Sequence record: PZ386973.1
Reading direction: 5' to 3' (one strand)
DNA length: 64,000 nucleotides
From: a phage
Shown here: one piece after another, positions 11,020 through 39,136 of the stretch
Layout: each line of letters starts with the position of its first letter
Position numbering within the stretch: the stretch's first letter is position 1
Program-made: the position numbers and the translations under genes
Notes under the pieces: model-generated
Told to the model about the DNA's origin: nothing
The model's input: the letters and a program-made list of their open reading frames with translations, nothing else
Databases searched by the model: none

Positions 11020-11262
11020 TTACGATTCCTTGAGCAAAGAAGCAAGTTCAGCATAGACTTTATCTAACTCAAAGCCGATGCGAAGAGACACGTTTGTTTT
11101 CCGTTGTTTAAGTAACCACTCGGATATGTTAGGGATGCCAGCTAGTCTAGCAGGAACCACCCTACATAGCTTTTCCGAAGTGTCGTAAACAGGAACTTTA
11201 CGTTCTTTTACAGGGAACTTCCTTGTTTCCCATTTTTTATTCTTCACTGTCATTTCTAGCAC
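11020..11262 (-). CDS. hypothetical protein
   Basis: 80-aa ORF. Confidence 0.35.
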   Translation of the reverse strand: MLEMTVKNKKWETRKFPVKERKVPVYDTSEKLCRVVPARLAGIPNISEWLLKQRKTNVSLRIGFELDKVYAELASLLKES

Positions 11263-14104
11263 CTAGCTCTGCCATTGCTTCATCATGCATATGTTTTTCC
11301 TCATCAGTCATAAACTTATATGGAATTGGCATACACTCGATTTTACAATAGGTTCTGTACCAGTCTACAATATTTTCAGTGTTCATATCCTTACCAATAC
11401 CCATCATACCAAGATACATTCTCGCATATTTTGGGTTAGCACTCTGACCTGTTTTAAGGAAGAAATCTTTCTTCTTACCTTTCAGAGCTTCTATGAATGG
11501 TTTGATAGTGATATTTGAACACTTCTTAATATCCTCCCAGAACATCTCGTGCATCTTATGGAAGAATGCAGCTCGATCATTCGGTTTATCCTTGATATAT
11601 TGTTCGACATGCTCAACTGTTACATCTTTAATAGACTCAAGATGATAATAGCGAACAAGAAGTAGTTTAGCTTCATACGCATCTGCATGGCGTGGAGCAC
11701 AATAATCAGGAGTTGAATACAAAATAGCTTTGATTCGCTCTTCCGTATACTCTTTTCCTGCACCTTCGATAGTTCCCCAGCTTTCACTGAAAATATCAAT
11801 AGTTGCACCCTGATCAAGCAAGTAATAACGTAAAGTACTAGTATAGTTCCTAGACTCCAGCTCCCTACGACGTGTGTATAATTGCTGTGCTAACTCCAGC
11901 CAACCTTCATCAATGTTATATTGTTCAGAGCCTGCGGAGAATCCACTCGTAGATTTATCAATAAAATAATAAATGTTCTGAGCGCCACGGTCGCGCCTGA
12001 TTGCTTGAAAACGCATGTTTGGCGCTTGATTACTGGTTCTAGTAATAACGAATACGTTATCAAAATAGTTGAAGTCAACACCACTCGTTACGGATGGACT
12101 ACATAATAAGCAATCAATTTGTTGATCAATTAGCTCATTAGTTGTATAATCCAGGATACGTCGAATATCTACATCAGACGTAGAATTTGAGTGAATTTCC
12201 TTAACTAACGCACCCGTATTACGACGCAATGCCATGCCCTTCTCATTCAGTTCATCCGGTCCACAGTCAGATACTAGGATAGATTTCTCACCCATCTCTA
12301 GGGAAGTCTGAAGTGCAACCCAAATACTGGATTCATCAGGAAACTCATAAGCATGAGCTTTTGATAGCATTTTACGGTGATGATTATAAAATGCAACCGG
12401 TTTATCAAACTCAATCAAAGAACCATATGCTTCAATTGTTTCTGCACTAATATCCCCATCAGATAATATAATGATTTTTGCAGTTGCAAGAATATCCCGA
12501 AGAACCTGAATACATTCACGACGTTGTTTAACAACCGGGGCGAATAATAGGTCATTCATTACAGCATCACATTCATCGATAAAGATTGCATCAATTTGAC
12601 CAATAAAACTCTTGAACTTATGCAAAGAGTGAATAGTTGTGGACATACGGTCAATAGCACCACGCTTAAAATTAAGCATATCTACAGACTTATCATATTG
12701 TCCTGCACTAAATTTCTTAGCATTTGAAGATACCAGTGCTCGAGTATTGGTAATTGCTAAGAAATTACCATTAATAACTCCTGAATCTAACCAACGCACA
12801 ACCGCCGTAGTTTTACCTGTACCTAGACTTGCTTTTACAAAAGTCATATAACCTTCTGGTGGTACAGTATTTAATTTCAAGAAGTTATCAGTCTCTAAAG
12901 AGTTAGTTTCTAGCTTTTTAAGTGGAATACCTTTTAAAACATCCGGTATATCACGTTTAGAATTATTAACAAACGCTTTCAGAGCCTGTTTACGACCATT
13001 ATTAAAGTAGTCTTGAATATTACGACTATTATCTTTAGTTGCAATATATTCTGATAAGGCTGGACGAATTTCTTTTTCTAGCCATGCAAAATCAACACCA
13101 TCCTCTAAAGCCCTGTGATAGAGTTTAGGAATAATACGTAGATACACTCCATCCTCAGCTTCTTCTAGTTCGCTGATAGTTTCTTCTACTTTATCAGAGG
13201 CAGCTTTTTTACCCTTAATTTGGTCGAGTAAAGAGTAGAACTCTTCTTTAAACTCACCTCTAGTTGTTTCATAGTCAACCAGATTATTGGGTAAATTTAC
13301 TTTAGAACCCTTAACAAATACCAGACGTGAAGCACCCTCCGCTTTAAACGGATCTACTATACCATCAGTAAATAAAGGATCTGCAAAATAATGGAGCTGT
13401 ACGGAAGAGTAATAAGCTAAGTCGGCAATATCAAAGCCATACTTTTGTCTACTACTTTCGTTGATAGATGTAAATAAGAATTTGATTTGACCCTGAGTTA
13501 CTTTAACATTAGATTCTAGTATTAAGTGCATTCGGATACCTGGTTTTAGCCCAGCCGAAGACGATGCATGAGCGATAAACCCTGCATCAAGAGGAAACAT
13601 ATCCTCACTAATACTATTTAACATTCTAATAATATGTCGAGCCATGCCAACAAGATCAAACTTGTTACAACCACCTGTATCTACAATACCATCCACGTCC
13701 ATTGCAATTATATGGCTTGGATTAGATACATTAAAGTTGCCCTTCTTACGTCGCACATTATTTTTAGGTGCAAGACATCGACCTCGTACCGCAACGATAT
13801 GAGGGTCAGACGTTAAACGTCTCATAAGAGGAAGCATTTCTACTAGGGTTTGAGGATCAACTTCATCAATTACATCAAACTTGAAGGGCATTGAAGCTGG
13901 TTTACCTTCAGGATGCTTTGAGGAAAATCTTTTAGCAAAAAGATAATCTTCTGCTTTAACTTCTCGCCAATTGCCTGTGGCTAAATCGCGATGAAATCCT
14001 GCATGACCTTGTAGGATTGAGAACACAACAATACTCCTGTGTTGGAAATGAAATAAGTTTTCTTTAGGACTATTCAGAAAGAATAGAACAACTGTTACTG
14101 TCAA
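11237..14104 (-). CDS. large P-loop NTPase, helicase-like (possible origin-binding or replicative helicase)
   Basis: Walker A SLGTGKTTAV and Walker B-like IFIDECDAV; 955 aa; an alternative start at 13891 is possible. Confidence 0.5.
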   Translation of the reverse strand: MTVTVVLFFLNSPKENLFHFQHRSIVVFSILQGHAGFHRDLATGNWREVKAEDYLFAKRFSSKHPEGKPASMPFKFDVIDEVDPQTLVEMLPLMRRLTSDPHIVAVRGRCLAPKNNVRRKKGNFNVSNPSHIIAMDVDGIVDTGGCNKFDLVGMARHIIRMLNSISEDMFPLDAGFIAHASSSAGLKPGIRMHLILESNVKVTQGQIKFLFTSINESSRQKYGFDIADLAYYSSVQLHYFADPLFTDGIVDPFKAEGASRLVFVKGSKVNLPNNLVDYETTRGEFKEEFYSLLDQIKGKKAASDKVEETISELEEAEDGVYLRIIPKLYHRALEDGVDFAWLEKEIRPALSEYIATKDNSRNIQDYFNNGRKQALKAFVNNSKRDIPDVLKGIPLKKLETNSLETDNFLKLNTVPPEGYMTFVKASLGTGKTTAVVRWLDSGVINGNFLAITNTRALVSSNAKKFSAGQYDKSVDMLNFKRGAIDRMSTTIHSLHKFKSFIGQIDAIFIDECDAVMNDLLFAPVVKQRRECIQVLRDILATAKIIILSDGDISAETIEAYGSLIEFDKPVAFYNHHRKMLSKAHAYEFPDESSIWVALQTSLEMGEKSILVSDCGPDELNEKGMALRRNTGALVKEIHSNSTSDVDIRRILDYTTNELIDQQIDCLLCSPSVTSGVDFNYFDNVFVITRTSNQAPNMRFQAIRRDRGAQNIYYFIDKSTSGFSAGSEQYNIDEGWLELAQQLYTRRRELESRNYTSTLRYYLLDQGATIDIFSESWGTIEGAGKEYTEERIKAILYSTPDYCAPRHADAYEAKLLLVRYYHLESIKDVTVEHVEQYIKDKPNDRAAFFHKMHEMFWEDIKKCSNITIKPFIEALKGKKKDFFLKTGQSANPKYARMYLGMMGIGKDMNTENIVDWYRTYCKIECMPIPYKFMTDEEKHMHDEAMAELGARNDSEE

Positions 14105-14555: not shown

Positions 14556-14649
14556 GTAAAATTTTCCGGATGGTGCTATCATTGGTCTTGAGTACGGATA
14601 AAACCGAGCCAAAATGACTCGGTAATCAGAGTTCAGCTAATAAAAATCA

Positions 14650-15039
14650 TTAGTCATTTAGGCCAGGAACATAGATCCCAACACGGTTTAATTGTTCTTT
14701 AGCTTCTTTAAGAATATCTGGAGTGTACTCCCAAACATCATCTTCCACCTGTAAAAGATGGGGCGAACAACCATCATCCGGCACACGACATATGGCCAGA
14801 CCACGTGGATGGAACAAAGAGAAATTTAGGGCAACAATCAAGCCCATAGCAGACAATTCATTCCAATCCAATTCCCATTCCCCGGCATATCCAGACAGGA
14901 AAACACCAATGCAGGGATCATCTATTTGCTGCTCCGGAAAAGTGAAGGAGGCTTGTCTTACCCCCAACCAACGTTGTAGTAGCTTCTCCGCACGTCTCAC
15001 CAAACTAGGGTCAATCTGACGCCAATATACTTGTTCCAT
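14650..15039 (-). CDS. hypothetical protein, paralog of adjacent ORF
   Basis: 129 aa; shares GL(I/V)(V/F)ALN..LF.P and C-terminal PGL motifs with 15049-15477. Confidence 0.45.
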   Translation of the reverse strand: MEQVYWRQIDPSLVRRAEKLLQRWLGVRQASFTFPEQQIDDPCIGVFLSGYAGEWELDWNELSAMGLIVALNFSLFHPRGLAICRVPDDGCSPHLLQVEDDVWEYTPDILKEAKEQLNRVGIYVPGLND

Positions 15040-15048
15040 TCTGCCCCC

Positions 15049-15477
15049 TTAAGCAGTTAAACCTGGGATCATATACCCGAAACGTCGAAGTTTCTGAATC
15101 CCCTCATTTACTTCTTCCGGTGAGTAAGACCAACCATAACGTTCATTAACCTGAAAACCAGGGGATTCACTAGTCTTATAGTTAACAACGAGGCGATGCT
15201 TAGCAGGCATAAACAGCTTATAGTTTAACGCAAAAACTAAGCCCATTTCATCTAACTCTTTCCAGCCAACAATTTCTTCAAGACCCTCCTCTACCTGAAC
15301 AATTAAACCAATACAGAGGGCCTCATCAATATCATCTTTAAAAGCAAAGGAGATTTCGTTATTCTCACACCATATTTTCAAGGAATTAATAGCCTCATTA
15401 TACAGGCTAGCCGGGAGAGTACGCCAAAAGTTAACCAAAATTGGGTTAGCTTCTTTAGAGAATACATTATTGAACAT
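15049..15477 (-). CDS. hypothetical protein, paralog of adjacent ORF
   Basis: 142 aa; tandem duplicate of 14650-15039. Confidence 0.45.
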   Translation of the reverse strand: MFNNVFSKEANPILVNFWRTLPASLYNEAINSLKIWCENNEISFAFKDDIDEALCIGLIVQVEEGLEEIVGWKELDEMGLVFALNYKLFMPAKHRLVVNYKTSESPGFQVNERYGWSYSPEEVNEGIQKLRRFGYMIPGLTA

Positions 15478-15479
15478 AC

Positions 15480-15986
15480 TTACACCTTAAATTGTTGTAA
15501 GGATTTACACATTTCAAGATCCGGGCTAAATTCTAGCATATAGCTAACAGCTTTTAAATCTTGAAGATTTATCCCAGTCCTACCGTTGACTATAACTGTT
15601 GGATACTGATACATCATAGCACCAGCATCATCAAGCACACACCAATGTTTGAGCTTATGCTTTTCAACGAAGCGAAGAACAGAATTACCCCTAGATAATC
15701 CACCACCAGTAAAATCCGTTGTACCAAGAAAACGATCGATAAGACCTAATCCGGTCATAATTCGAACGTTCTCCATTTCATTTTTAACAGAAAACCACGA
15801 AGATACCCCAACAATCATTATTGAAGAGGGACGAATAAAATCCTGAAAAGCCTTGAGAAGTGGCTTAAAAACCCAATCACTTCCGAAGAAGATCTTTTCA
15901 TCATCCGGCGCATGGTGGTGCGAGATGCTCGAATTGAGCACCCCATCAATATCTAGAAAAATAACTGGAGTATTACTTATTTCCAT
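15480..15986 (-). CDS. HAD-superfamily hydrolase/phosphatase-like protein
   Basis: N-terminal HAD motif I FLDIDGVL; 168 aa. Confidence 0.55.
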   Translation of the reverse strand: MEISNTPVIFLDIDGVLNSSISHHHAPDDEKIFFGSDWVFKPLLKAFQDFIRPSSIMIVGVSSWFSVKNEMENVRIMTGLGLIDRFLGTTDFTGGGLSRGNSVLRFVEKHKLKHWCVLDDAGAMMYQYPTVIVNGRTGINLQDLKAVSYMLEFSPDLEMCKSLQQFKV

Positions 15987-16155
15987 TTTTGTTCCTTTCT
16001 AAGAACGTATCATACTCAACCGTATCAACATATATGACACCATAGTCATCGGATTTATAGTCCATTTCCCACAGCTCACAGCGATAACACCAACTACCAT
16101 CCGCCCATACAAATATATCATCGGGATGTGTATATACAGATTTAACTATAGACAT
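15973..16155 (-). CDS. hypothetical small protein
   Basis: 60-aa ORF overlapping both neighbours by a few bases. Confidence 0.3.
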   Translation of the reverse strand: MSIVKSVYTHPDDIFVWADGSWCYRCELWEMDYKSDDYGVIYVDTVEYDTFLERNKNGNK

Positions 16156-16970
16156 ATTTGTTTCCCTGGCATATAAGGTCTACCCTCTAAATGAGCTTCC
16201 ACACGAGCAATAAAATCAGGATCACTGAAAGCATCTACCGCACCTTTACTCCAGTAAGGGACCCCACGTTCTTCCAGCTGGTACATCTCACTACGAGTCA
16301 TACCTTGATAGCCGGGCTCCGCTGCTAGAGCACTATCATAGTAGTTAACAACCATAAGTTTCGCAGCAGTCAAATTAAGAACAGGAAATAATTCCCAGTA
16401 GAAGTTAATTACTTGGTTAGAGCAACCAACTACAATAATCATATCTTGACTGGTAATACTGTCAAAAACATTATACATTTCTGCGTATGCAGGAGCATGC
16501 TCTCCAAAGAAGATTACATTAGGTTTAGCCCATTTATAATCATCCGGATCGATAGAACTGTATCCTACATCAATAATCCGTTTATTGCTACTATTGTATC
16601 TATCAGCTACAACAACCTCTTTTAAATATCCGTGAATGTGCAGAATGTCACTATGTGGAACGCCAGCACGCTCAATAAGGTCATCAACGTTGGTAGTCAA
16701 GTTTACTACTTGACCAGGGTATTGTTTATGCCATTCACCAATACGCAAATGCGCAAGATTGGGTTCGACAGTTTTTAGCTCTTCACGACGCTTGTTATAA
16801 AACATATGGGTTTTATGGTAAAAATTACCACGAAAGGCATGAATATTACATACTTCTTCTAGATCATAATCATCCCACAATGCTTTACCACTAGCAGTAT
16901 CAGTACGAAAAGCTCGTACACCACTTTCAACGCTCAAACCTGCACCGCTAATAATAATTACTCTACGCAT
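16146..16970 (-). CDS. Sir2-like (sirtuin family) NAD-dependent protein
   Basis: Rossmann signature SGAGLSVESGVRAFR and HG motif (ILHIHGY); no Cys4 zinc-ribbon visible. Confidence 0.7.
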   Translation of the reverse strand: MRRVIIISGAGLSVESGVRAFRTDTASGKALWDDYDLEEVCNIHAFRGNFYHKTHMFYNKRREELKTVEPNLAHLRIGEWHKQYPGQVVNLTTNVDDLIERAGVPHSDILHIHGYLKEVVVADRYNSSNKRIIDVGYSSIDPDDYKWAKPNVIFFGEHAPAYAEMYNVFDSITSQDMIIVVGCSNQVINFYWELFPVLNLTAAKLMVVNYYDSALAAEPGYQGMTRSEMYQLEERGVPYWSKGAVDAFSDPDFIARVEAHLEGRPYMPGKQICL

Positions 16971-17184
16971 TTTTCACCTGTTCTCTGAAGTTTTGCCCAA
17001 TGCTGTCTAATAGCTCAGCTAATTCTTTATTGCCTTTCTCCATTAAGGTATTAGCAATAACTTCTAGCATAGTAGCACAGGATTCAACACCATCCTTATA
17101 GCCAGTTTCCCACTGCTGCATTAATGCATTTTCCAAAGCGGCATTTAAACCATTATCTGGTAGCATCGGCTTCGAGAATGCCAT
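16963..17184 (-). CDS. hypothetical small protein
   Basis: 73-aa ORF. Confidence 0.3.
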   Translation of the reverse strand: MAFSKPMLPDNGLNAALENALMQQWETGYKDGVESCATMLEVIANTLMEKGNKELAELLDSIGQNFREQVKNA

Positions 17185-17356
17185 AAAGTTTCTCCTCTAG
17201 TTCCATAACACGATTTTCATAAGAGGCACGCAACTTTTCAATTGCCAGCGCACGCACTGTAACCTCATTAGAATTAATAGCTAATTGGGCCAGGTCTTCT
17301 GTTTCCATACGTCCATTGTAAATTAAGCGATATTTAAGATGTTTTACGTTTTTCAT
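17153..17356 (-). CDS. hypothetical small protein
   Basis: 67-aa ORF. Confidence 0.3.
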   Translation of the reverse strand: MKNVKHLKYRLIYNGRMETEDLAQLAINSNEVTVRALAIEKLRASYENRVMELEEKLYGILEADATR

Positions 17357-17365: not shown

Positions 17366-17647
17366 TTAGTTCTGTACTGTAAATTTATTCTTATCACAGT
17401 AAGCATAATAATACCCATACATACGATAAATTTTCACAGCCTTAGTAGACCCCTTCGATTCTTCATAATCAATCCAGAGCCACTTGTCTTTACCTACATA
17501 ATGTACCCGAAACTTCTTAACTTTCTTATCATTCCATGTTGCAACAACACGACGATAATCAAATCCGCCCAACCAATCTAGAGCCTTACGTTCTTCACTA
17601 GGCTCTCCAAGATGGGAGACATCTACTTTAGGAAGCAATTCGCTCAT
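17366..17647 (-). CDS. hypothetical protein
   Basis: 93-aa ORF downstream of a minus-strand promoter. Confidence 0.4.
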   Translation of the reverse strand: MSELLPKVDVSHLGEPSEERKALDWLGGFDYRRVVATWNDKKVKKFRVHYVGKDKWLWIDYEESKGSTKAVKIYRMYGYYYAYCDKNKFTVQN

Positions 17648-17675: not shown

Positions 17676-17704
17676 ATTATATATAAATTTTTGGCTGAAA
17701 GCAA
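17676..17704 (-). promoter_or_regulatory. sigma70-type promoter
   Basis: Reverse complement TTGCTT-17 nt-TATAAT plus ATAAATTTGAGAGGAG leader. Confidence 0.5.
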
Positions 17705-17746
17705 ATAAAATAAAAGCCAGGTCGACTAGCAACCCGGCTGATTAGC

Positions 17747-19624
17747 TTATTTAGCTCGAATATCCTGATGTTTCACTCTGCCCATCACCTCGTGCTGTTT
17801 GCCGGGGTTAAATGGACGAGCACCTGGATTTCCAAGATACCCACAAACTCGACGAGTTACTTCAAGAGTTTCGGGGTCATGATTACCACAGATAGGGCAC
17901 TTAAATCCATCTTCGGATGCTATTGTTTCACCTAAGAATCCACATTTACCACAAGAATCCACTGGAGTATTAATACCGAAGTAATGAACCTTACTAGCAG
18001 CATAATTAATAACCCATTCCAGTGCATCTGGGAATCGTTTCATATCCGGTAGTTCCACATAGGAAATGCATCCACCAGAAGCAATCGGCGTAAAATTAGA
18101 TTCATAGTCGAACTTCACGTTTGGAGCAACCTTACGCTCCACATCTAGGTGGTGCGAGTTAGTGTAGTAACCTTTACTAAGAATATCTTCATGCTCCGGG
18201 AAATATTCACGATCTAAACGGCAGAAACGATCACATAAGGATTCAGATGGTGTAGCATACAGACTATAGCCTAACTGAGTCTCTTCCTTCTTCTGATCCA
18301 CTCTATCCCGCATATATTGTAGAACACGTTGTACAAACTTAATACAGGTCTCGGACATTGTATCTACATCTTTGCCAAACATAAATTGTAGCATCTCATG
18401 GCAACCAATATATCCCAGAGATACAGAAGCACGGTTATAGAAATGATCAAATACATATTCATCAGGCCCCAAGCGTAGTCCAAAGGCTCCTGACATATAG
18501 AGGATGGGTGCGGCTTTAGCTTGAATGTATTTTAAGCGATCAACTCTCCACTCCAGTGCTTTAAGCGCGGTATCCACACGTAGCTCAAGCAAATCAAAGA
18601 ATAGATCAATGTTCCCTTCAGCTTCGATAGCAATTCTAGGCAAGTTTACAGAAACAACACCTAAGTTATTACGACCGGCAGTTTCTCCATCTTCTGCAGC
18701 AGCTAGGAACGAACGGCAGCCCATAGAAACTTTATAGTCACCAGTAACTTCCACAACCTTATCATAGCTGATGTAATCAGGATACATACGTTCAGCAGTA
18801 CATTTCATAGCTAACTTCTTGATGTCATAATTAACATCCCCTGGTTTCATATTTACGCCATCACGAAGTACAAATACCAGTTTCGGGAAGATAGCTGTAC
18901 GTTTATTGATACCTAAACCATCCATGCGTACTTTCAGTATTGCTTTCTGTACTAGACGTGCTTCCCAAGAAGTTCCTAGACCAAAACCAAAGGTAATAAA
19001 TGGACTCTGACCATTAGAGTTGAACATGGTATTGATTTCATATTCTAAACCCTGACAAGCGTCATAGACTTCTTTTTCAGTCATCTCCGTAGCCATTACG
19101 GATGCTTTAGCTTCATCCTTAGTCCAACGTTTTGCAAACGCATGATTTTTGTCATAGGATTTACGAACATAAGGGGCTAATACTTCATCAAGGCGATCTA
19201 CAGAAGTACCACCATACTGATGGGAGCTAACCTGAGTAATAATTTGAGCAGTAATAGCCGCCGCAGTAGTGATAGAGTTTGGAGTGCTAATTTCAGCATT
19301 ACCAACTTTCATACCATTCTTCAACATATCTTCCAGAGCTACCAGACAACAGTTAGTCATGCCTAATGCAGCATAATCAGCATCATGGAAATGAATATCC
19401 CCAATCATATGAGCATTTCGAATCTGAATTGGCATTTCTTCTAGAATTAGATACTTACTCAATTCACCTGCAAGCATATCCCTTTGTGTAGGGAAACGTT
19501 CTGAGGGTTTATTGGCATTATTAAATAGCAGTTCTTCATCTGCTGACCCTTCGATAATCTCTTTGCAGTTTCTAATTAACGCCTGCATTTCTTTATATTT
19601 TAGTTCTTCATTACGATTCATCAC
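17747..19624 (-). CDS. nrdD: anaerobic ribonucleoside-triphosphate reductase (class III)
   Basis: 625 aa; C-terminal glycyl-radical motif RRVCGYLG and zinc ribbon CGKCGF...CPICG. Confidence 0.85.
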   Translation of the reverse strand: MMNRNEELKYKEMQALIRNCKEIIEGSADEELLFNNANKPSERFPTQRDMLAGELSKYLILEEMPIQIRNAHMIGDIHFHDADYAALGMTNCCLVALEDMLKNGMKVGNAEISTPNSITTAAAITAQIITQVSSHQYGGTSVDRLDEVLAPYVRKSYDKNHAFAKRWTKDEAKASVMATEMTEKEVYDACQGLEYEINTMFNSNGQSPFITFGFGLGTSWEARLVQKAILKVRMDGLGINKRTAIFPKLVFVLRDGVNMKPGDVNYDIKKLAMKCTAERMYPDYISYDKVVEVTGDYKVSMGCRSFLAAAEDGETAGRNNLGVVSVNLPRIAIEAEGNIDLFFDLLELRVDTALKALEWRVDRLKYIQAKAAPILYMSGAFGLRLGPDEYVFDHFYNRASVSLGYIGCHEMLQFMFGKDVDTMSETCIKFVQRVLQYMRDRVDQKKEETQLGYSLYATPSESLCDRFCRLDREYFPEHEDILSKGYYTNSHHLDVERKVAPNVKFDYESNFTPIASGGCISYVELPDMKRFPDALEWVINYAASKVHYFGINTPVDSCGKCGFLGETIASEDGFKCPICGNHDPETLEVTRRVCGYLGNPGARPFNPGKQHEVMGRVKHQDIRAK

Positions 19625-19871
19625 ACCCTCCTTCTCTAACTAAGACTACTATTATAACTCATTCGAGGGCGGATGTCAACAATATTTTACTATAAAGTTC
19701 TGTAACATGATCTGAGTCAAAAAATTTTATTTGCCAACCTCTATTAAAAATTGTATAATCACGCACTCGTGTATGCGATATAAAATGATTGTCTAGTATC
19801 ACACATCTACCATTAAAAGCAAGCAAATTTTTTATTTAAATGCAATATCATAGGCTTATTTAAAATTGTAG

Positions 19872-27211: not shown

Positions 27212-27496
27212 ATGCGGATTTATAACTCAAATTCATTAGGATTTAAACCATTGAGAAAACGTGCACAATCACCTCGTCAAATAAGAAAGGCTAATATTGG
27301 TGAGCCAGAAACACGTCTTCCACCTCCTCCAGAACAACGTTTAGTTTATCTGGACGAAGAATTAGCTGAACGCGAAAGAAAAGCTCAAGAAGAGATTGAG
27401 CGTAAGAAAATGTGTACTGCTCCAGCCTACTCCAAGGGGGCTTATCAGTATATCTATACAGCCGAGGAGGCTAAAGATGCGGGGCGTAAAAAATGA
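27212..27496 (+). CDS. hypothetical protein
   Basis: 94-aa ORF; 4-bp overlap with the NADAR gene. Confidence 0.4.
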   Translation: MRIYNSNSLGFKPLRKRAQSPRQIRKANIGEPETRLPPPPEQRLVYLDEELAERERKAQEEIERKKMCTAPAYSKGAYQYIYTAEEAKDAGRKK

Positions 27497-27942
27497 AGAT
27501 TACTGAATTTAAAGGTACTTATAGTTTCTTATCTAACTTTTATTTATCACCAATTACTTTCGAATATCTAAATGAGATATGGCATGCTGATACTGTAGAA
27601 CATGCCTTTCAGGCTATGAAATCCGACCAAAAAGATGATGTAGCTCATGTACTGCGCTCCCTAAGTGCAGGAGTTGCCAAACGTAGGGGACGTAAATTAA
27701 CTCTGCGCTCTGACTGGGATAAGGTAAAAGATGATGTAATGCTAGAGCTTTTACGGTTAAAGTTTGCAATCCCTGATTTGAGAGACAAACTGTTAGCAAC
27801 AAAAAATGCAACTTTGGTCGAAGGAAATACCTGGGGAGATACATATTGGGGTGTTTGCCGAGGCATCGGGGATAATACTTTAGGAGTTCTTTTGATGCAG
27901 GTAAGGTCTGAAATTAAAAGAAGCTTACAGTTAATAAATTAA
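27493..27942 (+). CDS. NADAR-domain (YbiA-like) protein
   Basis: Motifs FLSNFY, VEHAFQAMK and WGVCRGIGDNTLGVLLMQVR match the NADAR/DUF1768 family. Confidence 0.75.
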   Translation: MKITEFKGTYSFLSNFYLSPITFEYLNEIWHADTVEHAFQAMKSDQKDDVAHVLRSLSAGVAKRRGRKLTLRSDWDKVKDDVMLELLRLKFAIPDLRDKLLATKNATLVEGNTWGDTYWGVCRGIGDNTLGVLLMQVRSEIKRSLQLIN

Positions 27943-29118: not shown

Positions 29119-29820
29119 ATGAAAGTAAAACCATTTGGTATGCTAGATATTGAATCTCTAGGAACCCCTGGAGATTGTGGTACTACCCATATCGCAATGC
29201 CTTCATTCGCTTTTGTGGCTATGCATGGAATTGATAAAGACCCTGATCTAGTATTTGTTACTTTAGATGTACAAGATCAACTTAATTCTGGTGCCAAAGT
29301 TACAGCATCTACTCTAGCATTCTGGATGGATCAGGCTAAACATAGCCCGTCTGCTATTCACATTATGGAAGCTATGAAGGAACGTAATCCAAAACTGATT
29401 GCCTTCCAAAATGGTAAACATCATTGCACTAATAAATTAGGCTCAAACTATGCTGCCTTCTCTATGGCTCAAAATATTATGGAGTTGGCTCTAGGCGAAA
29501 ATGCTTTGTATTATGGCAATGGCCCAGAGTTTGATATGACTATCTACTCTGCAAACACGTTCCATGCTGGAACCAATGAAGAGGTAGTTCCGTGGAAATT
29601 CTGGAATTTGGGTAATGTTCGATCTCTTCGTAATCTCTGGATGCAAGCTGGATACAGTTATAAAGCTCTAGAGACAGAAGGTATTAGCTGGGCAATAGCT
29701 AAAATGGAGAAGATGGACACTATTCGTTATGGGATCTATCCGGTTAAGCATGATCCTGCATTTGATGCCTTAGTTGAAAGCTATTGTGTTGCAGCTATGA
29801 TCGAAAAAATGAAAATTTGA
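29119..29820 (+). CDS. putative DEDDh 3'-5' exonuclease (DnaQ-like)
   Basis: Exo I-like LDIESLG and Exo III-like HDPAFDALVESY; 233 aa. Confidence 0.5.
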   Translation: MKVKPFGMLDIESLGTPGDCGTTHIAMPSFAFVAMHGIDKDPDLVFVTLDVQDQLNSGAKVTASTLAFWMDQAKHSPSAIHIMEAMKERNPKLIAFQNGKHHCTNKLGSNYAAFSMAQNIMELALGENALYYGNGPEFDMTIYSANTFHAGTNEEVVPWKFWNLGNVRSLRNLWMQAGYSYKALETEGISWAIAKMEKMDTIRYGIYPVKHDPAFDALVESYCVAAMIEKMKI

Positions 29821-31207: not shown

Positions 31208-32029
31208 ATGGGTAAATTACAAAAACAAATACTACCATATATAGATTATATTCGAGAAATTATAGAGTATAATCCTTATACCGGTAAATTATTTTATAAG
31301 CCTAATAAATACAAGAATAAAACTTGGCACACCCTATATGCTGGGAGAGAAATATGTAGTAAGAACTCTGATGGGTACATCAGGGTTAGTTTGCTATTAG
31401 ATAATAAACCCACAATTATTTATGGACACCGAATAGCGTGGTTGCTCCATTATGGTGAAGAGCCGCCTTATATGATCGACCATATAAATACCATACCGTG
31501 GGATAACAGAATTATTAATCTAAGAGAGACAAATTTTAAGTTAAATAGGATTAATACTAGTAAAACCGTAGGTGTAGAACTCCTCCCCGAGGGTTTTGTG
31601 TATAGCATTACATTAGGTGGAAAGTTTTTCGTATCTCCTGGCTTCACCACTTTCGAACAAGCTAAAGTAGAAAGAGAAAAACTAGTAAATGGTTTATGTA
31701 ATGCAGAAATTGGGAAGCAGACCAATATTCTAATAGACGATGTTAGAGATTTACCTGAAATGTCCATTATTTGTCGTACAGTTATAGGTGCGCTGGAACT
31801 ATCAGATGTGTTTAGTTTTACAGGATCCTATTTATTTATGGACTCAGATTTAGGAGATCCAGAGGTACAAGGAAAAGATTTATTAGATCATATACTATCA
31901 TTAGGTCAAAGACCCCTAAAAGTGATTCTAGTAACATCTAATCCTGTTGACGCAGAGTACATGAGAGGTACTCTTACGTCTTATGGATACCGAGAAAATC
32001 CCAATAGATTAGAATATGATCTATTTTAA
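31208..32029 (+). CDS. HNH homing-endonuclease-like protein
   Basis: HNH motif GHRIAWLLHYGEEPPYMIDHINTIPWDNRIINL; 273 aa. Confidence 0.7.
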   Translation: MGKLQKQILPYIDYIREIIEYNPYTGKLFYKPNKYKNKTWHTLYAGREICSKNSDGYIRVSLLLDNKPTIIYGHRIAWLLHYGEEPPYMIDHINTIPWDNRIINLRETNFKLNRINTSKTVGVELLPEGFVYSITLGGKFFVSPGFTTFEQAKVEREKLVNGLCNAEIGKQTNILIDDVRDLPEMSIICRTVIGALELSDVFSFTGSYLFMDSDLGDPEVQGKDLLDHILSLGQRPLKVILVTSNPVDAEYMRGTLTSYGYRENPNRLEYDLF

Positions 32030-34013: not shown

Positions 34014-34088
34014 CGGGGTGTAGTCTAAGGGAGAGGCAGGAGTCTTCTAAATTCCTTTATGCAGGTTCGAATCCTGTCACCTCGGCCA
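34014..34088 (+). tRNA. tRNA-Arg (anticodon TCT), read by eye
   Basis: Acceptor CGGGGTG/CACCTCG, T-arm GCAGG-TTCGAAT-CCTGT, anticodon loop CTTCTAA, encoded CCA. Confidence 0.55.
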
Positions 34089-34122
34089 ATTTTATTAACT
34101 GTAACTAAAACAAAGGAAATAT

Positions 34123-35070
34123 ATGTTTGCTACTAAAAATATGAAAGAACTGACTTCTGAGCAGAAAGTAATTCGTACTATTAAACGTTGGGGTATTGGT
34201 GCTGTAGTTGGTTTAGCAGGTTTAATCCTAGCTTTTAATTCATATACTATTGTTTCTGATGGTACGGTTAAAACCCAAACATTCCTGGGTAAAGTAGACC
34301 CTAATCCAGTATTGCCAGGTTTCCATCTTGTAAACCCGTTTGCATCTTTCGATACTTTTAGTACAAAAGATATTGCTGTAAAATTAGATAAACTTCAGGT
34401 TCCTAGTCAGGATAAGTTTAAATCCACTGTTGACCTGACTGTTATGTTGCAGTTTGATGGTTCTAAGGCACCTATTAACCGTATTAATGCGGGTACTCAG
34501 GATCAGGCACTAGACAAGTATGTAACTGAAAAATTACTATCTACTATTCGTGAGTTTGGTAAGTCTGTACCTAAAGCACAAGATTTGTTTGATGCTAAAA
34601 TTCAGGCTCAATTGCAAACTGCAATTCAACAGGAAGTTGAAGAGTATGCACGCCCATATGGTTACACAGTTAAGCAGGTGTTCCTTCAGGATATTACTTT
34701 GCCACCGGTAATCATGGAACAGGTACAGAATACCAAAGTTCGTGAAGAGCAAGTTAATGCTGCGAAAGCTGAACTGGCTCGTGTTGAACAGGAAGCACAG
34801 CAAAAAGTTAAACAAGCAGAAGCAGATCGTGAAGCTCGCAACAACCAAGCTATTGCTAATGAACGTGACGCAGATGCTAAACTGTACGCAGCTAAGAAAG
34901 AAGCTGAAGCTAACGCCGCATTGCAACGTACCATTACTCCTGAGATGATTCGCTGGAAGCAACTGGAAGTTGAAATGATTCGTGCTCAGAAATACCAAGG
35001 TGGTGTACCACAGACGGTAGTTGGTACTGGTTATGATGGCCAGATGATTATGGATATGCGTAACAAGTAA
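34123..35070 (+). CDS. SPFH/band-7 (prohibitin-like) membrane protein
   Basis: N-terminal transmembrane helix, band-7-like core, C-terminal coiled coil; 315 aa. Confidence 0.6.
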   Translation: MFATKNMKELTSEQKVIRTIKRWGIGAVVGLAGLILAFNSYTIVSDGTVKTQTFLGKVDPNPVLPGFHLVNPFASFDTFSTKDIAVKLDKLQVPSQDKFKSTVDLTVMLQFDGSKAPINRINAGTQDQALDKYVTEKLLSTIREFGKSVPKAQDLFDAKIQAQLQTAIQQEVEEYARPYGYTVKQVFLQDITLPPVIMEQVQNTKVREEQVNAAKAELARVEQEAQQKVKQAEADREARNNQAIANERDADAKLYAAKKEAEANAALQRTITPEMIRWKQLEVEMIRAQKYQGGVPQTVVGTGYDGQMIMDMRNK

Positions 35071-35139
35071 TAGTTACACGTAATCTTCGAACCAAGCCTG
35101 CGTTTCCCTCGAGAGCGCGGGCTTTTCTGTATTTAAGGC

Positions 35140-35186
35140 AAAAGAAAAAGCCCCTTACCTTTCGGCAGGGGCTTTTGTTTTTGGTT
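35140..35186. terminator. bidirectional rho-independent terminator
   Basis: Hairpin AGCCCCT...AGGGGCT flanked by an A-run and a T-run, between convergent genes. Confidence 0.7.
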
Positions 35187-35389
35187 TAGAACCACACTCT
35201 CGGTATACAGCAACCACCCATACGGGAGGCCAATCTTGACTGAAAATCTACTCTAGGGGGCAGGATAAGAGTAGGCTTAAAGGCAAACGGATTGAACGCC
35301 GGTATTTGCGTAAACATTGCTGGAGAGCAACAACGTGCTACAGGCATTGGGCAGCACGAAACAGATTTTCTGCAACACATAATTCCTCC

Positions 35390-35806
35390 TTAGGAGTTAT
35401 TACCGCTATTTTGAGCTTTTGCAATTTGGCTTTGGCAGAAGCTATTAAACTTACCCATAAGTGATACAAGCTGCCTCCCATCCTCTGTCTTTGCGAAGTC
35501 TTCGAAAAGGGCTAGTACTGCCTGTCCTTCCGCAGAAACCTGCGGTTGTTGGGTTTGCTGCTGAACTTGCTGCTGAGGCACCTGTTGCTGCATTTGTTGA
35601 GGCATTTGCGACTGCCCGCTCATTTGCTGCATCATTTGCATAGGACTTACACTTCCAGGGTTTTGCTGGAGTTGTTGCTGCATCTGTTGCGCTTCTGCTA
35701 AACGCTGTTGCAATTGTTGTAAGTAGGGGTTATCCAGACCCGGAATGGGCTGCTGGGAGCCCATACTTTGATTAAGTCCGTTATTTACAAAACCATATTT
35801 ACTCAT
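35390..35806 (-). CDS. hypothetical Gln-rich low-complexity protein
   Basis: 138 aa with long Q/M/P-rich tracts. Confidence 0.4.
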   Translation of the reverse strand: MSKYGFVNNGLNQSMGSQQPIPGLDNPYLQQLQQRLAEAQQMQQQLQQNPGSVSPMQMMQQMSGQSQMPQQMQQQVPQQQVQQQTQQPQVSAEGQAVLALFEDFAKTEDGRQLVSLMGKFNSFCQSQIAKAQNSGNNS

Positions 35807-35827
35807 AATGGGCTCCTCCCCTTAATA

Positions 35828-36814: not shown

Positions 36815-37021
36815 TTTTTGACACCTCCTAGTATATAGAAAATGTGTGTCTCTTTGATCACTCATCCATAACATATACTTTACACTACCCCAGCGAAAAT
36901 GTCAAGGGGTCTTTAAAAATTGCCCCCGGATTTTTAGTGGGGTCACAAATTTTGGTCCTCACCACTTATATGCTACCCTTAAGTGCCCTATGATTTTCCT
37001 CTAAAAAGTTAAAAAATTTGA

Positions 37022-37050
37022 TTGCTTGAATGCTAAATTCTCTGTATAAT
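37022..37050 (+). promoter_or_regulatory. sigma70-type promoter
   Basis: TTGCTT-17 nt-TATAAT. Confidence 0.5.
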
Positions 37051-37080
37051 GTATCTATAAATTTGAGAGAGGAACCAAAT

Positions 37081-37599: not shown

Positions 37600-37620
37600 T
37601 ATAATATATCTTATAAATTC

Positions 37621-37714
37621 GGAAGATTAACCCTAAAGGTAAGGGAGCTGTTTGCTAAACAGCCAGTAACTGTGGAAACATGGTGTGCCAGTTCGAGTCT
37701 GGCATCTTCCTCCA
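37621..37714 (+). tRNA. tRNA-Ser (anticodon GCT), long variable arm
   Basis: Perfect acceptor GGAAGAT/ATCTTCC, T-arm TGCCA-GTTCGAGTC-TGGCA, anticodon loop TTGCTAA, encoded CCA. Confidence 0.65.
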
Positions 37715-37720
37715 GATTTT

Positions 37721-37798
37721 GGTTCTCAAGCTCATATGGTATGAGCACCCGGCTCATAACCGGAAGGTACGTAGGTTCGAATCCTCGGGGAGCCACCA
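37721..37798 (+). tRNA. tRNA with CAT anticodon (Met or Ile), read by eye
   Basis: Acceptor GGTTCTC/GGGAGCC, D-arm GCTC...GAGC, anticodon loop CTCATAA; T-stem weak. Confidence 0.45.
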
Positions 37799-37818
37799 AC
37801 TTAATTAGGGGATTACAA

Positions 37819-38007: not shown

Positions 38008-38016
38008 GGAGACTAT

Positions 38017-39129: not shown

Positions 39130-39136
39130 CTAATAC

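What the first reader, a model, noticed from the sequence alone, without database searches (positions are those of the whole stretch)
14650..16970. Sir2-like protein without zinc ribbon, next to a HAD-like hydrolase and a tandem paralog pair
The Sir2-like ORF has the Rossmann GAGxSxxSG and HG motifs but no visible Cys4 zinc ribbon, a pattern seen in NAD-consuming Sir2 domains of defence systems rather than classical deacetylases. Its neighbours are a HAD-type phosphatase and two duplicated unknown proteins, which could form an NAD or nucleotide-modification module.
Basis: partly seen in the sequence, partly recalled or inferred. Interest (0 to 1): 0.55.

Follow-up and report, generated by a model that had tools for sequence, protein, structure and literature searches.

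The report
Zinc-less phage T5-type sirtuin operon
This is the known Sir2-like gene of T5-like phages (T5.102) with its usual neighbours; it is a classical CobB/SIRT5-type sirtuin that has lost its zinc-binding cysteines, not a defence-type NAD-destroying enzyme, and its real substrate (proteins or damaged RNA ends) has not been tested.

Summary
On the minus strand of a T5-like phage genome lie a 274-aa Sir2 protein (16146-16970), a 60-aa ORF, a HAD phosphatase (15480-15986) and two paralogous DUF7415 proteins (32% identical). Sir2 has GAGLSVESG, TTNVD and His113-Gly, and no Cys between HG and FGE.

The defence-NADase reading does not hold:
- The protein matches Pfam SIR2 (PF02146), not SIR2_2, and no PADLOC model.
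- Its best sequence and fold matches are E. coli CobB, Sir2Af1 and SIRT5.
- It keeps the small domain, the three-stranded ribbon without metal ligands, and the class III Y-x-x-R pair.

All of this is already published. The gene is T5.102 (2005). Zinc-less phage Sir2/CobB was described in 2016. The sirtuin + "Swiss-army-knife" HAD neighbourhood of T5-like phages was described in 2022 and predicted to remove RNA 2'-phosphates as Tpt1/KptA does.

I reproduced the contexts behind that prediction: RNA ligase-cREC-kinase-Sir2 in rV5-like phages, and 2H-Sir2-Nudix-cREC-PIN/PhoH in larger phages.

The four genes are not an obligate module. Klebsiella T5-like phages lack the HAD, and DT57C has deleted Sir2 and HAD but kept DUF7415.

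RNA-end healing (~0.4) and ordinary lysine deacylation (~0.35) remain nearly tied. Verdict: already known, low-moderate interest.

The parts
16146..16970 (-). Sir2-like protein (274 aa), counterpart of T5.102: a classical class III-like sirtuin with intact catalytic motifs and a ribbon without cysteines
   Evidence: PF02146 E=3.5e-24. phrog_2162 E=5e-120. Best PDB hit CobB 1s5p, E=7e-18. AF2 pLDDT 88.6 and Foldseek to CobB at 5.5e-17. Motif and Cys positions.
15973..16155 (-). Conserved 60-aa acidic ORF between Sir2 and the HAD (matches the length and position of T5.104), function unknown
   Evidence: phrog_5116 E=6e-30. Overlaps the Sir2 stop by 10 nt and the HAD start by 14 nt. Present in most T5-like loci and in some HAD-less ones such as L058.
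15480..15986 (-). HAD-superfamily phosphatase of the 'Swiss-army-knife RNA repair' type (168 aa), counterpart of T5.105
   Evidence: PF18143 HAD_SAK_2 E=2.2e-20, positions 1-138 of 139. DxD, SS and DD motifs conserved. No PDB relative by sequence. 474 phage records match.
15049..15477 (-). DUF7415 protein a (142 aa), counterpart of T5.106
14650..15039 (-). DUF7415 protein b (129 aa), counterpart of T5.107, tandem paralogue of the previous gene
   Evidence: PF24187 E=1.5e-31. 32% identity to paralogue a, E=1e-19. Residues 56-125 have 77-aa homologues next to nrdD/nrdG or rnlA in T4-like phages.
16963..17184 (-). Small upstream ORF (73 aa), function unknown, overlaps the Sir2 start by 8 nt
   Evidence: phrog_5827 E=5.7e-31. 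Coordinates.
17153..17356 (-). Small upstream ORF (67 aa), function unknown
   Evidence: phrog_5236 E=3.7e-46.
17366..17647 (-). First ORF of the unit (93 aa, basic), function unknown
   Evidence: phrog_7953 E=5.8e-64.
17676..17704 (-). Promoter-like site: TTGCTT, 17-nt spacer, TATAAT, upstream of the 93-aa ORF
   Evidence: Read directly from the sequence. T5 annotates a promoter at the equivalent place. Below the threshold of the consensus scan.
17715..17739 (-). Terminator-like hairpin after nrdD, marking the upstream end of the unit
   Evidence: 10-bp stem with 6 GC pairs followed by a T-run. T5 annotates a terminator here.
14597..14623 (-). Terminator-like hairpin (9-bp stem, UUU loop, UUUUAU tail) after DUF7415b
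   Evidence: RNA fold -14.8 kcal/mol, z=-2.4. T5 annotates a rho-independent terminator after T5.107.

Best explanation
Shown:
- The window is a T5-like (Demerecviridae) phage.
- The finding is its T5.100-T5.107-type gene unit, lying between nrdD and the replication-origin-binding protein gene in the phage's replication and nucleotide-metabolism region.
- The Sir2 gene encodes a classical class III-like sirtuin. NAD-binding and catalytic residues are intact: GAGxSxxSG, F21/R22, N94/D96, His113, Y58-x-x-R61.
- The zinc-ribbon module is kept as a beta-ribbon but has lost its four cysteine ligands.
- Next to it is a catalytically intact HAD phosphatase of the SAK 'RNA repair' type.

Inferred (most likely by a small margin):
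- The sirtuin uses NAD+ to attack a phosphate rather than an acyl group. It would transfer ADP-ribose to a 2'-phosphate left on cleaved or re-ligated RNA (tRNA) and release it as ADP-ribose 1'',2''-cyclic phosphate plus nicotinamide.
- This parallels Tpt1/KptA chemistry: first attack at C1'' of NAD+, then attack by the ribose 2''-OH, with His113 as base.
- The HAD would either remove the other terminal phosphate from the RNA end or dephosphorylate the ADP-ribose-phosphate by-product.
- The unit would be an accessory counter-measure against host RNases that leave 2',3'-cyclic phosphate ends.
- The DUF7415 pair and the small ORFs have no assignable role and are probably not obligate partners.
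For: Identity and fold.

Context, reproduced here independently of the published claim:
- In 13 rV5-like loci the roughly 60%-identical orthologue sits near RNA_lig_T4_1, an AAA_33 kinase, an ATP-dependent ligase, MazG and a metallophosphoesterase, all on the same strand. cREC_REC was detected in 9 of the 13.
- In L029 the run RNA ligase - cREC - kinase - Sir2 is contiguous. These are the ligase, cyclic phosphodiesterase, kinase and 2'-phosphate-removal activities of the fungal Trl1/Tpt1 pathway.
- In locus L067 (a 109-kb contig) the order is 2H(Acb1-like) - Sir2 - x - Nudix - cREC - x - PIN-PhoH. The jumbo-phage loci L065 and L070 share Sir2, the Nudix-type protein, cREC and the long PhoH.
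- In T5-like loci the partner is HAD_SAK_2: 23 of 23 close loci plus 5 divergent ones.

The partner enzymes (2H, cREC, HAD phosphatase, Nudix) fit breakdown of ADP-ribose cyclic phosphate, not of O-acyl-ADP-ribose. This follows the published reasoning in PMC9503650 sec. 3.7.3.

Other genes in the same window fit the theme: cREC (31208-32029), a homologue of the rV5-cluster metallophosphoesterase (55747-56340, E=1e-21), NADAR, and 22 tRNA genes.

Clade-specific changes occur in substrate-facing motifs: TQNID becomes TTNVD, and CobB's V-Y-P, whose Pro is called strictly conserved, becomes V-I-N-F with invariant F190.

The module is accessory: DT57C carries a natural Sir2-HAD deletion.
Against: - No experiment exists in the searched library. 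The argument is guilt by association, resting on partner families (cREC, SAK-HAD) whose own functions are only predictions.
- Neither this window nor the annotated rest of relative WP85 has an RNA ligase or polynucleotide 5'-kinase. WP85 does carry one 'polynucleotide kinase' label in its pre-early region, which I take to be the T5 dmp phosphatase; I did not check this. The pathway therefore looks incomplete in T5-like phages, and I know of no host ligase that would use ends healed to 3'-OH/2'-OH.
- Residues lining the acyl-lysine tunnel of CobB keep their character: A76->C41, Y92->Y58, R95->R61, I131->V95, V187->V152 (mapped). That is what an ordinary deacylase would show.
- The family is acidic (median pI 5.2), which is unusual for an RNA-binding enzyme.
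- About 13 loci from ~140-150 kb phages show none of the RNA-repair neighbours.
- Sir2 occurs without the HAD in Klebsiella T5-like phages.
Confidence: 0.4

Rival explanations
1. It is an ordinary NAD+-dependent protein lysine deacylase (deacetylase/desuccinylase, CobB/SIRT5-like). It would strip acyl groups from host or phage proteins during infection, for example to reactivate acylated metabolic, replication or translation enzymes. The HAD and DUF7415 genes would be unrelated neighbours in a crowded early operon.
For: - Best sequence and structure matches are all deacylases: CobB E=7e-18, Foldseek 5.5e-17; SIRT5; Sir2Af1.
- NCBIfam's best hits are 'NAD-dependent protein deacylase' models.
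- All deacylation residues are present, including the class III Y58-x-x-R61 pair, invariant in the aligned homologues.
- The residues facing CobB's acyl-tunnel positions are hydrophobic or conservative replacements (C41, V95, V152).
- A published in-silico study of the Vibrio phage homologue reached this conclusion and found an intact acetyl-lysine tunnel despite the missing zinc (PMC5107563).
- As far as I recall, almost all characterised PF02146 sirtuins are deacylases.
- The components are distributed independently of one another.
Against: - Scores fall far below every NCBIfam CobB equivalog cutoff (100 vs 243 bits, 91 vs 320).
- The host already has CobB.
- Linkage to cyclic-phosphate and terminal-phosphate enzymes recurs in three different phage architectures, which deacylation does not explain.
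- No macro-domain or esterase partner for O-acyl-ADP-ribose is nearby.
- The Pro of the V-Y-P substrate loop, described as strictly conserved, is replaced by an invariant Phe.
Confidence: 0.35
2. It is an ADP-ribosyltransferase (SirTM-like) or another NAD+-consuming enzyme aimed at a host protein, DNA or a small-molecule immune signal. That would make it a host-takeover or anti-defence factor rather than a repair enzyme.
For: - Sirtuin chemistry allows ADP-ribosyl transfer (PMC9503650).
- In L067 Sir2 lies next to an Acb1-like 2H phosphodiesterase and a Nudix enzyme, which could be read as an anti-signalling island.
- Sir2 diverges much faster than its neighbours: about 51% identity against 89% for the HAD between two T5-like subgroups. 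This is typical of conflict genes.
- A NADAR gene is present in the window.
Against: - There is no adjacent macro domain. The NADAR gene is about 10.5 kb away on the other strand.
- The catalytic His and the class III acyl or anion pocket are retained.
- No known anti-defence family matched.
Confidence: 0.12
3. One reading: a defence-type Sir2 NADase that depletes NAD+ (for example for superinfection exclusion), working with the HAD and the paralogues as one NAD or nucleotide-modification module.
For: - The four zinc cysteines are absent.
- The genes are tightly packed in one transcription unit.
Against: - No SIR2_2 hit and no PADLOC defence-model hit.
- The fold is classical, with the small domain retained.
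- None of the sensor or partner domains that I recall for defence Sir2 systems (SLOG, HerA, pAgo, TIR) was found in any of the eight operon proteins scanned.
- The gene sits in a strictly lytic phage that itself needs NAD+ for its NAD-dependent DNA ligase.
- Zinc-bearing and zinc-less forms are mixed within the same clade.
- Sir2, HAD and DUF7415 are lost and kept independently.
Confidence: 0.04

Closest known systems
Phage T5 gene T5.102 'putative Sir2-like protein' and its neighbours T5.103-T5.107 (AY543070)
   Same: - Same genes in the same order, between nrdD and the origin-binding protein gene.
- Identity to T5: Sir2 92%, HAD 96%, DUF7415b 95%.
- Same flanking promoter and terminators.
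   Different: - This window has one small ORF between Sir2 and the HAD where T5 annotates two (T5.103, T5.104).
- The best DNA matches are Salmonella and Escherichia T5-like phages at about 95-97% rather than T5 itself.
Phage sirtuin clade predicted to act in RNA repair (Iyer, Burroughs, Anantharaman, Aravind 2022, PMC9503650 sec. 3.7.3; type 3 = Escherichia phage SP15: sirtuin + SAK-HAD)
   Same: This locus is that type-3 neighbourhood. SP15's DUF7415 protein is 91% identical to the one here. I reproduced the type-1 and type-2 neighbourhoods as well.
   Different: - The section I read does not mention the missing zinc site, the DUF7415 pair, the fact that the HAD is optional, or the lack of an RNA ligase and kinase in T5-like phages.
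- The proposed activity is untested.
E. coli CobB / human SIRT5 (class III sirtuins, lysine deacylases)
   Same: - Same fold: Foldseek TM-score 0.70-0.84 against CobB.
- Same NAD-binding motifs, catalytic His and Y-x-x-R pair.
- Same small-domain topology.
   Different: - Only about 25% identity, and below all CobB equivalog cutoffs.
- No Cys3/4 zinc site.
- TTNVD instead of TQNID, and V-I-N-F instead of V-Y-P.
- An extra C-terminal segment.
- Close (>=47% identical) homologues were found only on viral contigs; the species-genome scan returned five loci at <=43% identity.
Zinc-less Sir2/CobB of Vibrio schizoT4-like phages (KVP40, phiSt2, phiGrn1; Skliros et al. 2016, PMC5107563)
   Same: The same phage sirtuin group: 35-41% identical hits in Vibrio phages. 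That paper describes the same absence of zinc ligands with a preserved finger domain, and names T5 as carrying the gene.
   Different: - Different neighbourhood (their discussion centres on NAD salvage genes).
- The Vibrio protein has I-N-P where this clade has I-N-F.
Tpt1/KptA RNA 2'-phosphotransferase
   Same: Only the proposed chemistry is shared: an NAD+-dependent two-step transfer that releases nicotinamide and ADP-ribose 1'',2''-cyclic phosphate. The companion activities (ligase, kinase, cyclic phosphodiesterase) also appear in the rV5-like cluster.
   Different: The fold is unrelated (ART fold versus sirtuin Rossmann fold). The protein is not a family member, and the activity has not been shown.
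Defence Sir2 NADases (ThsA, DSR1/2, Sir2-HerA, pAgo-associated Sir2; Pfam SIR2_2)
   Same: They share the Rossmann NAD-binding core, and both lack a Cys4 site.
   Different: - No profile match.
- This protein keeps the helical and ribbon small domain and the acyl-lysine-type pocket.
- No sensor or partner domain is present.

Membership tests
Sirtuin family, classical type (Pfam SIR2, PF02146) | Profile match above the curated threshold over the whole domain | tested here: met
   86.2 bits against a cutoff of 24, residues 9-187 on profile positions 1-178 of 180.
Sirtuin family, classical type (Pfam SIR2, PF02146) | NAD-binding and catalytic motifs: GAGxSxxSG, FR, (T)QNxD, catalytic His in HG, FGE | tested here: met
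   GAGLSVESG 9-17, F21-R22, TTNVD 92-96 (T in place of Q), H113-G114, FGE 155-157. All are invariant in 47 aligned homologues.
Sirtuin family, classical type (Pfam SIR2, PF02146) | Structural zinc bound by four cysteines (CxxC...CxxC) in the small domain | tested here: not met
   No Cys or His in residues 115-154. 0-2 Cys in that segment across 121 homologues. Zinc content itself cannot be measured with these tools.
Sirtuin family, classical type (Pfam SIR2, PF02146) | Two-domain architecture: Rossmann domain plus a small domain (helical module and ribbon) | tested here: met
   AF2 model pLDDT 88.6, with strands 114-122, 131-134 and 147-152 forming the ribbon. Foldseek TM-score 0.70 (query) / 0.84 (target) against CobB.
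Sirtuin family, classical type (Pfam SIR2, PF02146) | NAD+-dependent lysine deacylase activity | not testable with these tools
   Needs an enzyme assay.
Class III sirtuins (CobB/SIRT5) | Y-x-x-R pair that binds acidic acyl groups | tested here: met
   Y58 and R61 in FYNKRR align to CobB FYNARR and are invariant in the aligned homologues.
Class III sirtuins (CobB/SIRT5) | Equivalog-level similarity to CobB (NCBIfam cutoffs) | tested here: not met
   NF001753 100.5 bits against 243; NF040867 90.7 against 320.
Defence-associated Sir2 NADases (SIR2_2; ThsA, DSR, Sir2-HerA, SPARSA) | Match to SIR2_2 or to PADLOC defence Sir2 models | tested here: not met
   At E<=0.1 only PF02146 appears in Pfam. 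PADLOC gives only a noise hit to a type I REase model at E=0.063.
Defence-associated Sir2 NADases (SIR2_2; ThsA, DSR, Sir2-HerA, SPARSA) | Fused or adjacent sensor or partner (SLOG, HerA, pAgo, TIR, large C-terminal domain) | tested here: not met
   The protein is a 274-aa single domain. The seven other operon proteins scanned gave only HAD_SAK_2, DUF7415 or no Pfam family.
SirTM (macrodomain-linked ADP-ribosylating sirtuins) | Operon partner with a macro domain | tested here: not met
   No macro domain among the eight operon proteins. The only ADPr-processing domain found is NADAR at 27493-27942 on the opposite strand.
Phage 'RNA-repair' sirtuin clade (Iyer et al. 2022) | Conserved neighbourhood with RNA-end-processing enzymes (type 3: SAK-type HAD) | tested here: met
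   HAD_SAK_2 lies one small ORF downstream. It is conserved in 28 T5-like loci. Orthologues in rV5-like and larger phages sit with RNA ligase, kinase, cREC, 2H and Nudix genes.
Phage 'RNA-repair' sirtuin clade (Iyer et al. 2022) | RNA 2'-phosphate removal activity (Tpt1-like) | not testable with these tools
   It is only a prediction in the literature, and no experimental paper was found.
HAD_SAK_2 phosphatases (PF18143) | Profile match and the HAD catalytic motifs (DxD, S/T, K/R, DD) | tested here: met
   73.8 bits against a cutoff of 27.5. D12/D14, S62/S63 and D123/D124 are conserved. Motif III (R99) is assigned only by eye.
DUF7415 (PF24187) | Profile match | tested here: met
   118.9 and 108.8 bits against a cutoff of 27. 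No functional information and no solved structural relative.

The most novel reading that the evidence does not exclude
The T5/rV5-type phage sirtuin is a sirtuin-fold functional analogue of Tpt1/KptA. It would use NAD+ to remove 2'-phosphates from broken or re-ligated tRNA/RNA, with the SAK-HAD handling the remaining phosphate or the ADP-ribose-phosphate by-product. That would be a new catalytic activity for the sirtuin fold and a new NAD-dependent phage counter-measure against RNA-cleaving host defences. The idea is already in print as a prediction, so only the demonstration would be new.
Probability: 0.35. Interest if true: 0.7.

Novelty: already known. Interest (0 to 1): 0.3.

Why it matters
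T5-like and rV5-like phages are widely used model and therapeutic phages. Nearly a thousand sequenced phage genomes (978 of 50,697 records) carry this sirtuin, yet nobody has shown what it does.

If it removes RNA 2'-phosphates, it would add a new reaction to sirtuin chemistry. It would also add an NAD+-dependent RNA-repair arm to the phage side of the contest with tRNA- and RNA-cleaving defences, and it would help explain why some of these phages invest in NAD+ supply.

If it is simply a deacylase, it would be a case of a virus resetting host protein acylation.

There is also a practical point. Many phage records label the neighbouring HAD gene 'Sir2', which traces to a PHROG family that appears to be built on a deletion remnant. 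That label should be corrected.

Tried and rejected
- **Defence-NADase classification:** rejected on profiles (Pfam, PADLOC), sequence and fold.
- **SirTM-like system:** rejected because there is no macro-domain partner.
- **Internal repeat inside DUF7415 proteins:** the two halves show no similarity.
- **HAD relatives in the PDB by sequence:** none at E<=1.
- **RNA ligase, polynucleotide kinase, MazG or ATP-ligase homologues of the rV5-like cluster in this window:** none. Only the metallophosphoesterase was found. The window's cREC was found by Pfam but not by my cluster HMM.
- **Fusion partners of longer sirtuin relatives:** they gave only WG and RHS repeats or nothing informative.
- **Cellular homologues:** a pattern-limited scan of 185,579 species genomes gave five loci at 43% identity or less, without RNA-repair neighbours; one again sits next to NrdD.
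- **Literature for experiments on T5.102 or a phage sirtuin as Tpt1 analogue:** nothing beyond the two in-silico papers.
- **Burroughs and Aravind 2016 (the SAK definition):** the paper is not held in the library.
- **Electrostatics or tunnel geometry of the model:** not possible, because model coordinates are not exposed.


Full report
**What the window is.** The region is 94-97% identical to the best-matching T5-like phages of Salmonella and Escherichia and matches in 531 phage records. The surrounding genes are the T5 replication and nucleotide-metabolism set:
- DNA polymerase, primase, helicase and a split NAD-dependent DNA ligase;
- the origin-binding protein;
- NrdD, then divergently PhoH, NrdA/B, DHFR, ThyA and RNase H;
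- 22 tRNA genes.

Locus L020 is a 121,750-bp contig, the same length as the T5 record AY543070. In T5 the genes of the finding are T5.102 (Sir2-like), T5.103/104 (small ORFs), T5.105 (HAD), and T5.106 and T5.107 (the paralogues). They are flanked by an annotated terminator and promoter upstream and a terminator downstream.

**Checking the observation.** All four features exist where stated, on the minus strand.
- The 274-aa Sir2 protein carries GAGLSVESG (9-17), F21-R22, TTNVD (92-96), H113-G114 and FGE (155-157).
- It has only three cysteines (41, 183, 273), and none lies in the 40 residues between HG and FGE.
- In the phmmer alignment the CobB cysteines in 'VRCSQ' and 'KCHCC' face non-cysteine residues.
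- Across 121 close homologues that segment has 0, 1 or 2 Cys (68, 49 and 4 sequences), never four.
- The HAD matches PF18143 (HAD_SAK_2) end to end at E=2.2e-20. Its DxD, SS and DD motifs are conserved.
- The two downstream proteins are paralogues (32% identity, E=1e-19) of Pfam DUF7415.
- The eight genes overlap or are at most 10 nt apart and have Shine-Dalgarno sequences.
- They lie between a terminator-like hairpin after nrdD (17715-17739) followed by a TTGCTT-17-TATAAT site (17676-17704), and a 9-bp hairpin with a U-tail (14597-14623).

**What kind of Sir2 it is.** It is a classical sirtuin, not a defence-type one.
- Pfam gives only PF02146. PADLOC gives nothing meaningful. NCBIfam's best hits are 'NAD-dependent protein deacylase' models, but far below their equivalog cutoffs.
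- The best PDB sequences are E. coli CobB (7e-18), Sir2Af1/Af2, SIRT5 and Sir2Tm.
- An AlphaFold2 model built from 47 homologues is confident (pLDDT 88.6, pTM 0.87). It keeps the helical module and a three-stranded ribbon (strands 114-122, 131-134, 147-152) in the place of the zinc ribbon.
- The 50 best Foldseek matches in the PDB are all CobB, Sir2Af1, SIRT5 and Sir2Tm. No ThsA, DSR2, Sir2-HerA or pAgo-Sir2 appears among them.
- The class III signature Y-x-x-R (Y58, R61; 'FYNKRR' against CobB 'FYNARR') is invariant in the aligned homologues.
- Mapping the CobB residues named in the engineered-pocket PDB entries through the alignment gives A76->C41, I131->V95 and V187->V152. All are hydrophobic and invariant in the aligned homologues.

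An exhaustive HMMER search of 1.84 billion cluster representatives found 3,088 relatives. Among the nearest 150:
- 84 have a full Cys4 site, 53 have 0-1 Cys and 13 are intermediate.
- The zinc-less ones are concentrated among the closest 50.
- Both kinds commonly carry a G-Y/N-Y dipeptide in the ribbon and a Cys at position 41.

The zinc ligands were therefore lost within a clade of otherwise ordinary sirtuins. Their absence does not mark a defence-type domain. This zinc loss, with a preserved finger domain and acetyl-lysine tunnel, was already described for the homologous Sir2/CobB of Vibrio phages and KVP40. That paper names T5 as another carrier (PMC5107563). Zinc-less PF02146 proteins have also been noted in acetic acid bacteria.

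**Distribution.**
- tblastn finds the sirtuin in 978 of 50,697 phage records. These include T5-like phages (Escherichia, Salmonella, Klebsiella), rV5-like phages of about 136-152 kb, Erwinia, Pectobacterium and Serratia phages, Vibrio schizoT4-like phages and some jumbo phages.
- A pattern-based scan of one genome for each of 185,579 bacterial and archaeal species found only five loci, at 43% identity or less. Close (>=47% identical) homologues were found only on viral contigs.
- The HAD is in 474 records, almost all of them Salmonella or Escherichia T5-like phages.
- DUF7415b matches 877 records.

**Are the four genes one module?** Only loosely.
- In 80 viral loci fetched around sirtuin homologues, all 23 close T5-like loci and four divergent ones have Sir2 - (usually the small ORF) - HAD - two DUF7415 genes; a fifth divergent locus (L033) has the HAD and one DUF7415.
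- L055, L058 and L059 lack the HAD but keep DUF7415 (L058/L059: NrdD - 76 aa - Sir2 - 63 aa - DUF7415 x2).
- Among phage records, 131 Klebsiella records match Sir2 but only 3 match the HAD.
- Phage DT57C has a natural deletion running from mid-Sir2 to mid-HAD. It leaves a 90-aa 'sir2 (defective)' remnant, while both DUF7415 genes remain. Sir2 and the HAD are therefore dispensable in the laboratory and can be lost without DUF7415.
- Between two T5-like subgroups the HAD is about 89% identical, DUF7415b about 71% and Sir2 only about 51%. The sirtuin evolves, or is exchanged, on its own schedule.
- Residues 56-125 of DUF7415b have 77-aa homologues wedged between nrdD and nrdG in T4-like Klebsiella phages, and directly after rnlA in an Aeromonas phage.

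**What the sirtuin may do.** Two published in-silico proposals exist.
- Skliros et al. 2016 argue for an ordinary deacetylase that activates host enzymes.
- Iyer et al. 2022 define a phage sirtuin clade found in three neighbourhood types: (1) jumbo phages, with 2H, Nudix, cREC and PIN; (2) rV5 and Mydo phages, with a T4-like RNA ligase, cREC, a kinase, MazG and a calcineurin-like phosphoesterase; (3) T5-like phage SP15, with the SAK-type HAD.
- They propose that the sirtuin removes RNA 2'-phosphates as KptA/Tpt1 does.

I reproduced these contexts from raw loci.
- In L029 the order is Metallophos - x - x - RNA_lig_T4_1 - cREC - AAA_33 kinase - Sir2 - ATP-dependent ligase - ... - MazG. All are on one strand with minimal gaps. 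The same gene set occurs in 13 loci, with cREC detected in 9 of them.
- In L067 (a 109-kb contig) the order is 2H(Acb1-like) - Sir2 - x - Nudix(Nudt16-like) - cREC - x - PIN-PhoH. The jumbo-phage loci L065 and L070 share Sir2, the Nudix-type protein, cREC and the long PhoH.

Ligase, cyclic phosphodiesterase, kinase and an NAD-using enzyme are the four activities of the fungal Trl1/Tpt1 pathway (from my knowledge of that pathway). The 2H, cREC, phosphatase and Nudix partners also fit the breakdown of ADP-ribose 1'',2''-cyclic phosphate rather than of O-acyl-ADP-ribose. Sirtuin and Tpt1 chemistries are formally parallel: an oxygen nucleophile attacks C1'' of NAD+, then the ribose 2''-OH attacks the acyl carbon or the phosphorus. 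The window also carries a cREC gene, a homologue of the rV5-cluster metallophosphoesterase (E=1e-21), a NADAR gene and 22 tRNAs.

**Why I do not regard this as settled.**
- No RNA ligase or polynucleotide kinase was found in this window, and none is credibly annotated in the rest of the relative's genome. The one 'polynucleotide kinase' label in WP85's pre-early region I take to be the T5 dmp phosphatase, which I did not check. In T5-like phages the proposed pathway has no sealing step.
- The acyl-lysine tunnel residues are conserved.
- The family is acidic, with a median pI of 5.2.
- About 13 loci from other large phages show none of these partners.
- The partner families' own functions are only predictions.
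- On the other side, the clade has changed substrate-facing motifs: TQNID to TTNVD, and V-Y-P to V-I-N-F with an invariant Phe replacing a Pro described as strictly conserved. The recurring linkage to phosphate-end enzymes in three architectures is also hard to explain for a plain deacylase.

My estimates are:

| Reading | Probability |
|---|---|
| Tpt1-like RNA-end processing | ~0.40 |
| Ordinary lysine deacylase | ~0.35 |
| Other ADP-ribosyl transfer or anti-defence role | ~0.12 |
| Defence-type NADase | ~0.04 |
| Something else | remainder |

**Novelty and verdict.** The gene has been annotated since the T5 genome. The missing zinc site was published in 2016 and the Sir2-HAD neighbourhood, with a mechanistic prediction, in 2022. 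No experimental work was found in the library. The finding is real but already known. Its defence-NADase interpretation is not supported, and its 'module' idea is only partly supported. What remains open, and cheaply testable, is the substrate of a sirtuin carried by about a thousand sequenced phages.

Noticed in passing
window 31208-32029 (+): A single 273-aa ORF joins an HNH_3 endonuclease domain (residues 73-107) in frame to a cREC_REC 'cyclic-phosphate processing' domain (residues 173-257). In relative WP85 the cREC gene is a separate 105-aa ORF. This looks like a homing-endonuclease insertion fused to, or reading into, cREC.
   Followed up: partly
window 27493-27942 (+); 29119-29820 (+); 54588-55463 (+); 55747-56340 (+): Further NAD/ADPr- and RNA-end-related genes are scattered in the window: a NADAR domain protein, an Rv2179c-like 3'-5' exoribonuclease and two calcineurin-like phosphoesterases. 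The second phosphoesterase is homologous (E=1e-21) to the one that sits in the Sir2/RNA-ligase cluster of rV5-like phages.
   Followed up: partly
window 15480-15986 (-) and many public records (e.g. PV844355 CDS055): The HAD gene is labelled 'Sir2 NAD-dependent deacetylase' in many phage records. The cause appears to be phrog_18062 (92 aa, named Sir2), which matches the HAD C-terminus (E=6e-58) and a short piece of Sir2. It probably derives from Sir2-HAD deletion remnants such as the 90-aa 'sir2 defective' ORF of DT57C.
   Followed up: yes
L083 (phage DT57C, NC_027356 46493-46765): A natural deletion removes most of Sir2, the small ORF and most of the HAD, while both DUF7415 genes and the flanks remain. 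Sir2 and the HAD are therefore non-essential for a viable, well-studied T5-like phage.
   Followed up: yes
window 14650-14870 (C-terminal half of DUF7415b); L085 3480-3713; L086 3995-4228: Residues 56-125 of DUF7415b have 77-aa stand-alone homologues in two places: translationally coupled between nrdD and nrdG in T4-like Klebsiella phages (Mineola gp067), and immediately after RNA ligase 1 (rnlA) in Aeromonas phage AsFcp_2. This probably corresponds to phrog_3954.
   Followed up: partly
L041, L042, L047, L048 versus the window: Divergence is uneven inside one syntenic unit. The HAD is about 89-90% identical and DUF7415b about 71% in related phages, but Sir2 is only about 51-52%. This suggests allele replacement or fast evolution of the sirtuin alone.
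   Followed up: partly
window 17747-19624 (nrdD) and loci L062, L064, L088: Sir2 homologues lie within a few kb of an NrdD gene in T5-like phages, in two divergent viral contigs, and in a 43-kb Bacilli MAG contig where Sir2 lies about 0.5 kb upstream of NrdD. This may be inherited synteny or a functional link.
   Followed up: no
window 19651-19759: Back-to-back promoters sit between nrdD and phoH: a perfect consensus TTGACA-17-TATAAT on the minus strand (19679-19651) and TTGCCA-17-TATAAT on the plus strand (19731-19759).
   Followed up: no
window 34014-45544 (+): There are 22 tRNA genes, including two tRNA-Lys, two tRNA-Gln, two tRNA-Leu and two tRNA-Met, interspersed with small ORFs.
   Followed up: no
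window 11237-14104 (-): The mechanical ORF for the origin-binding/helicase protein starts at a TTG and is 955 aa, while relatives annotate about 929 aa (2,790 nt in WP85 and DT57C). The true start is probably downstream of 14104.
   Followed up: no
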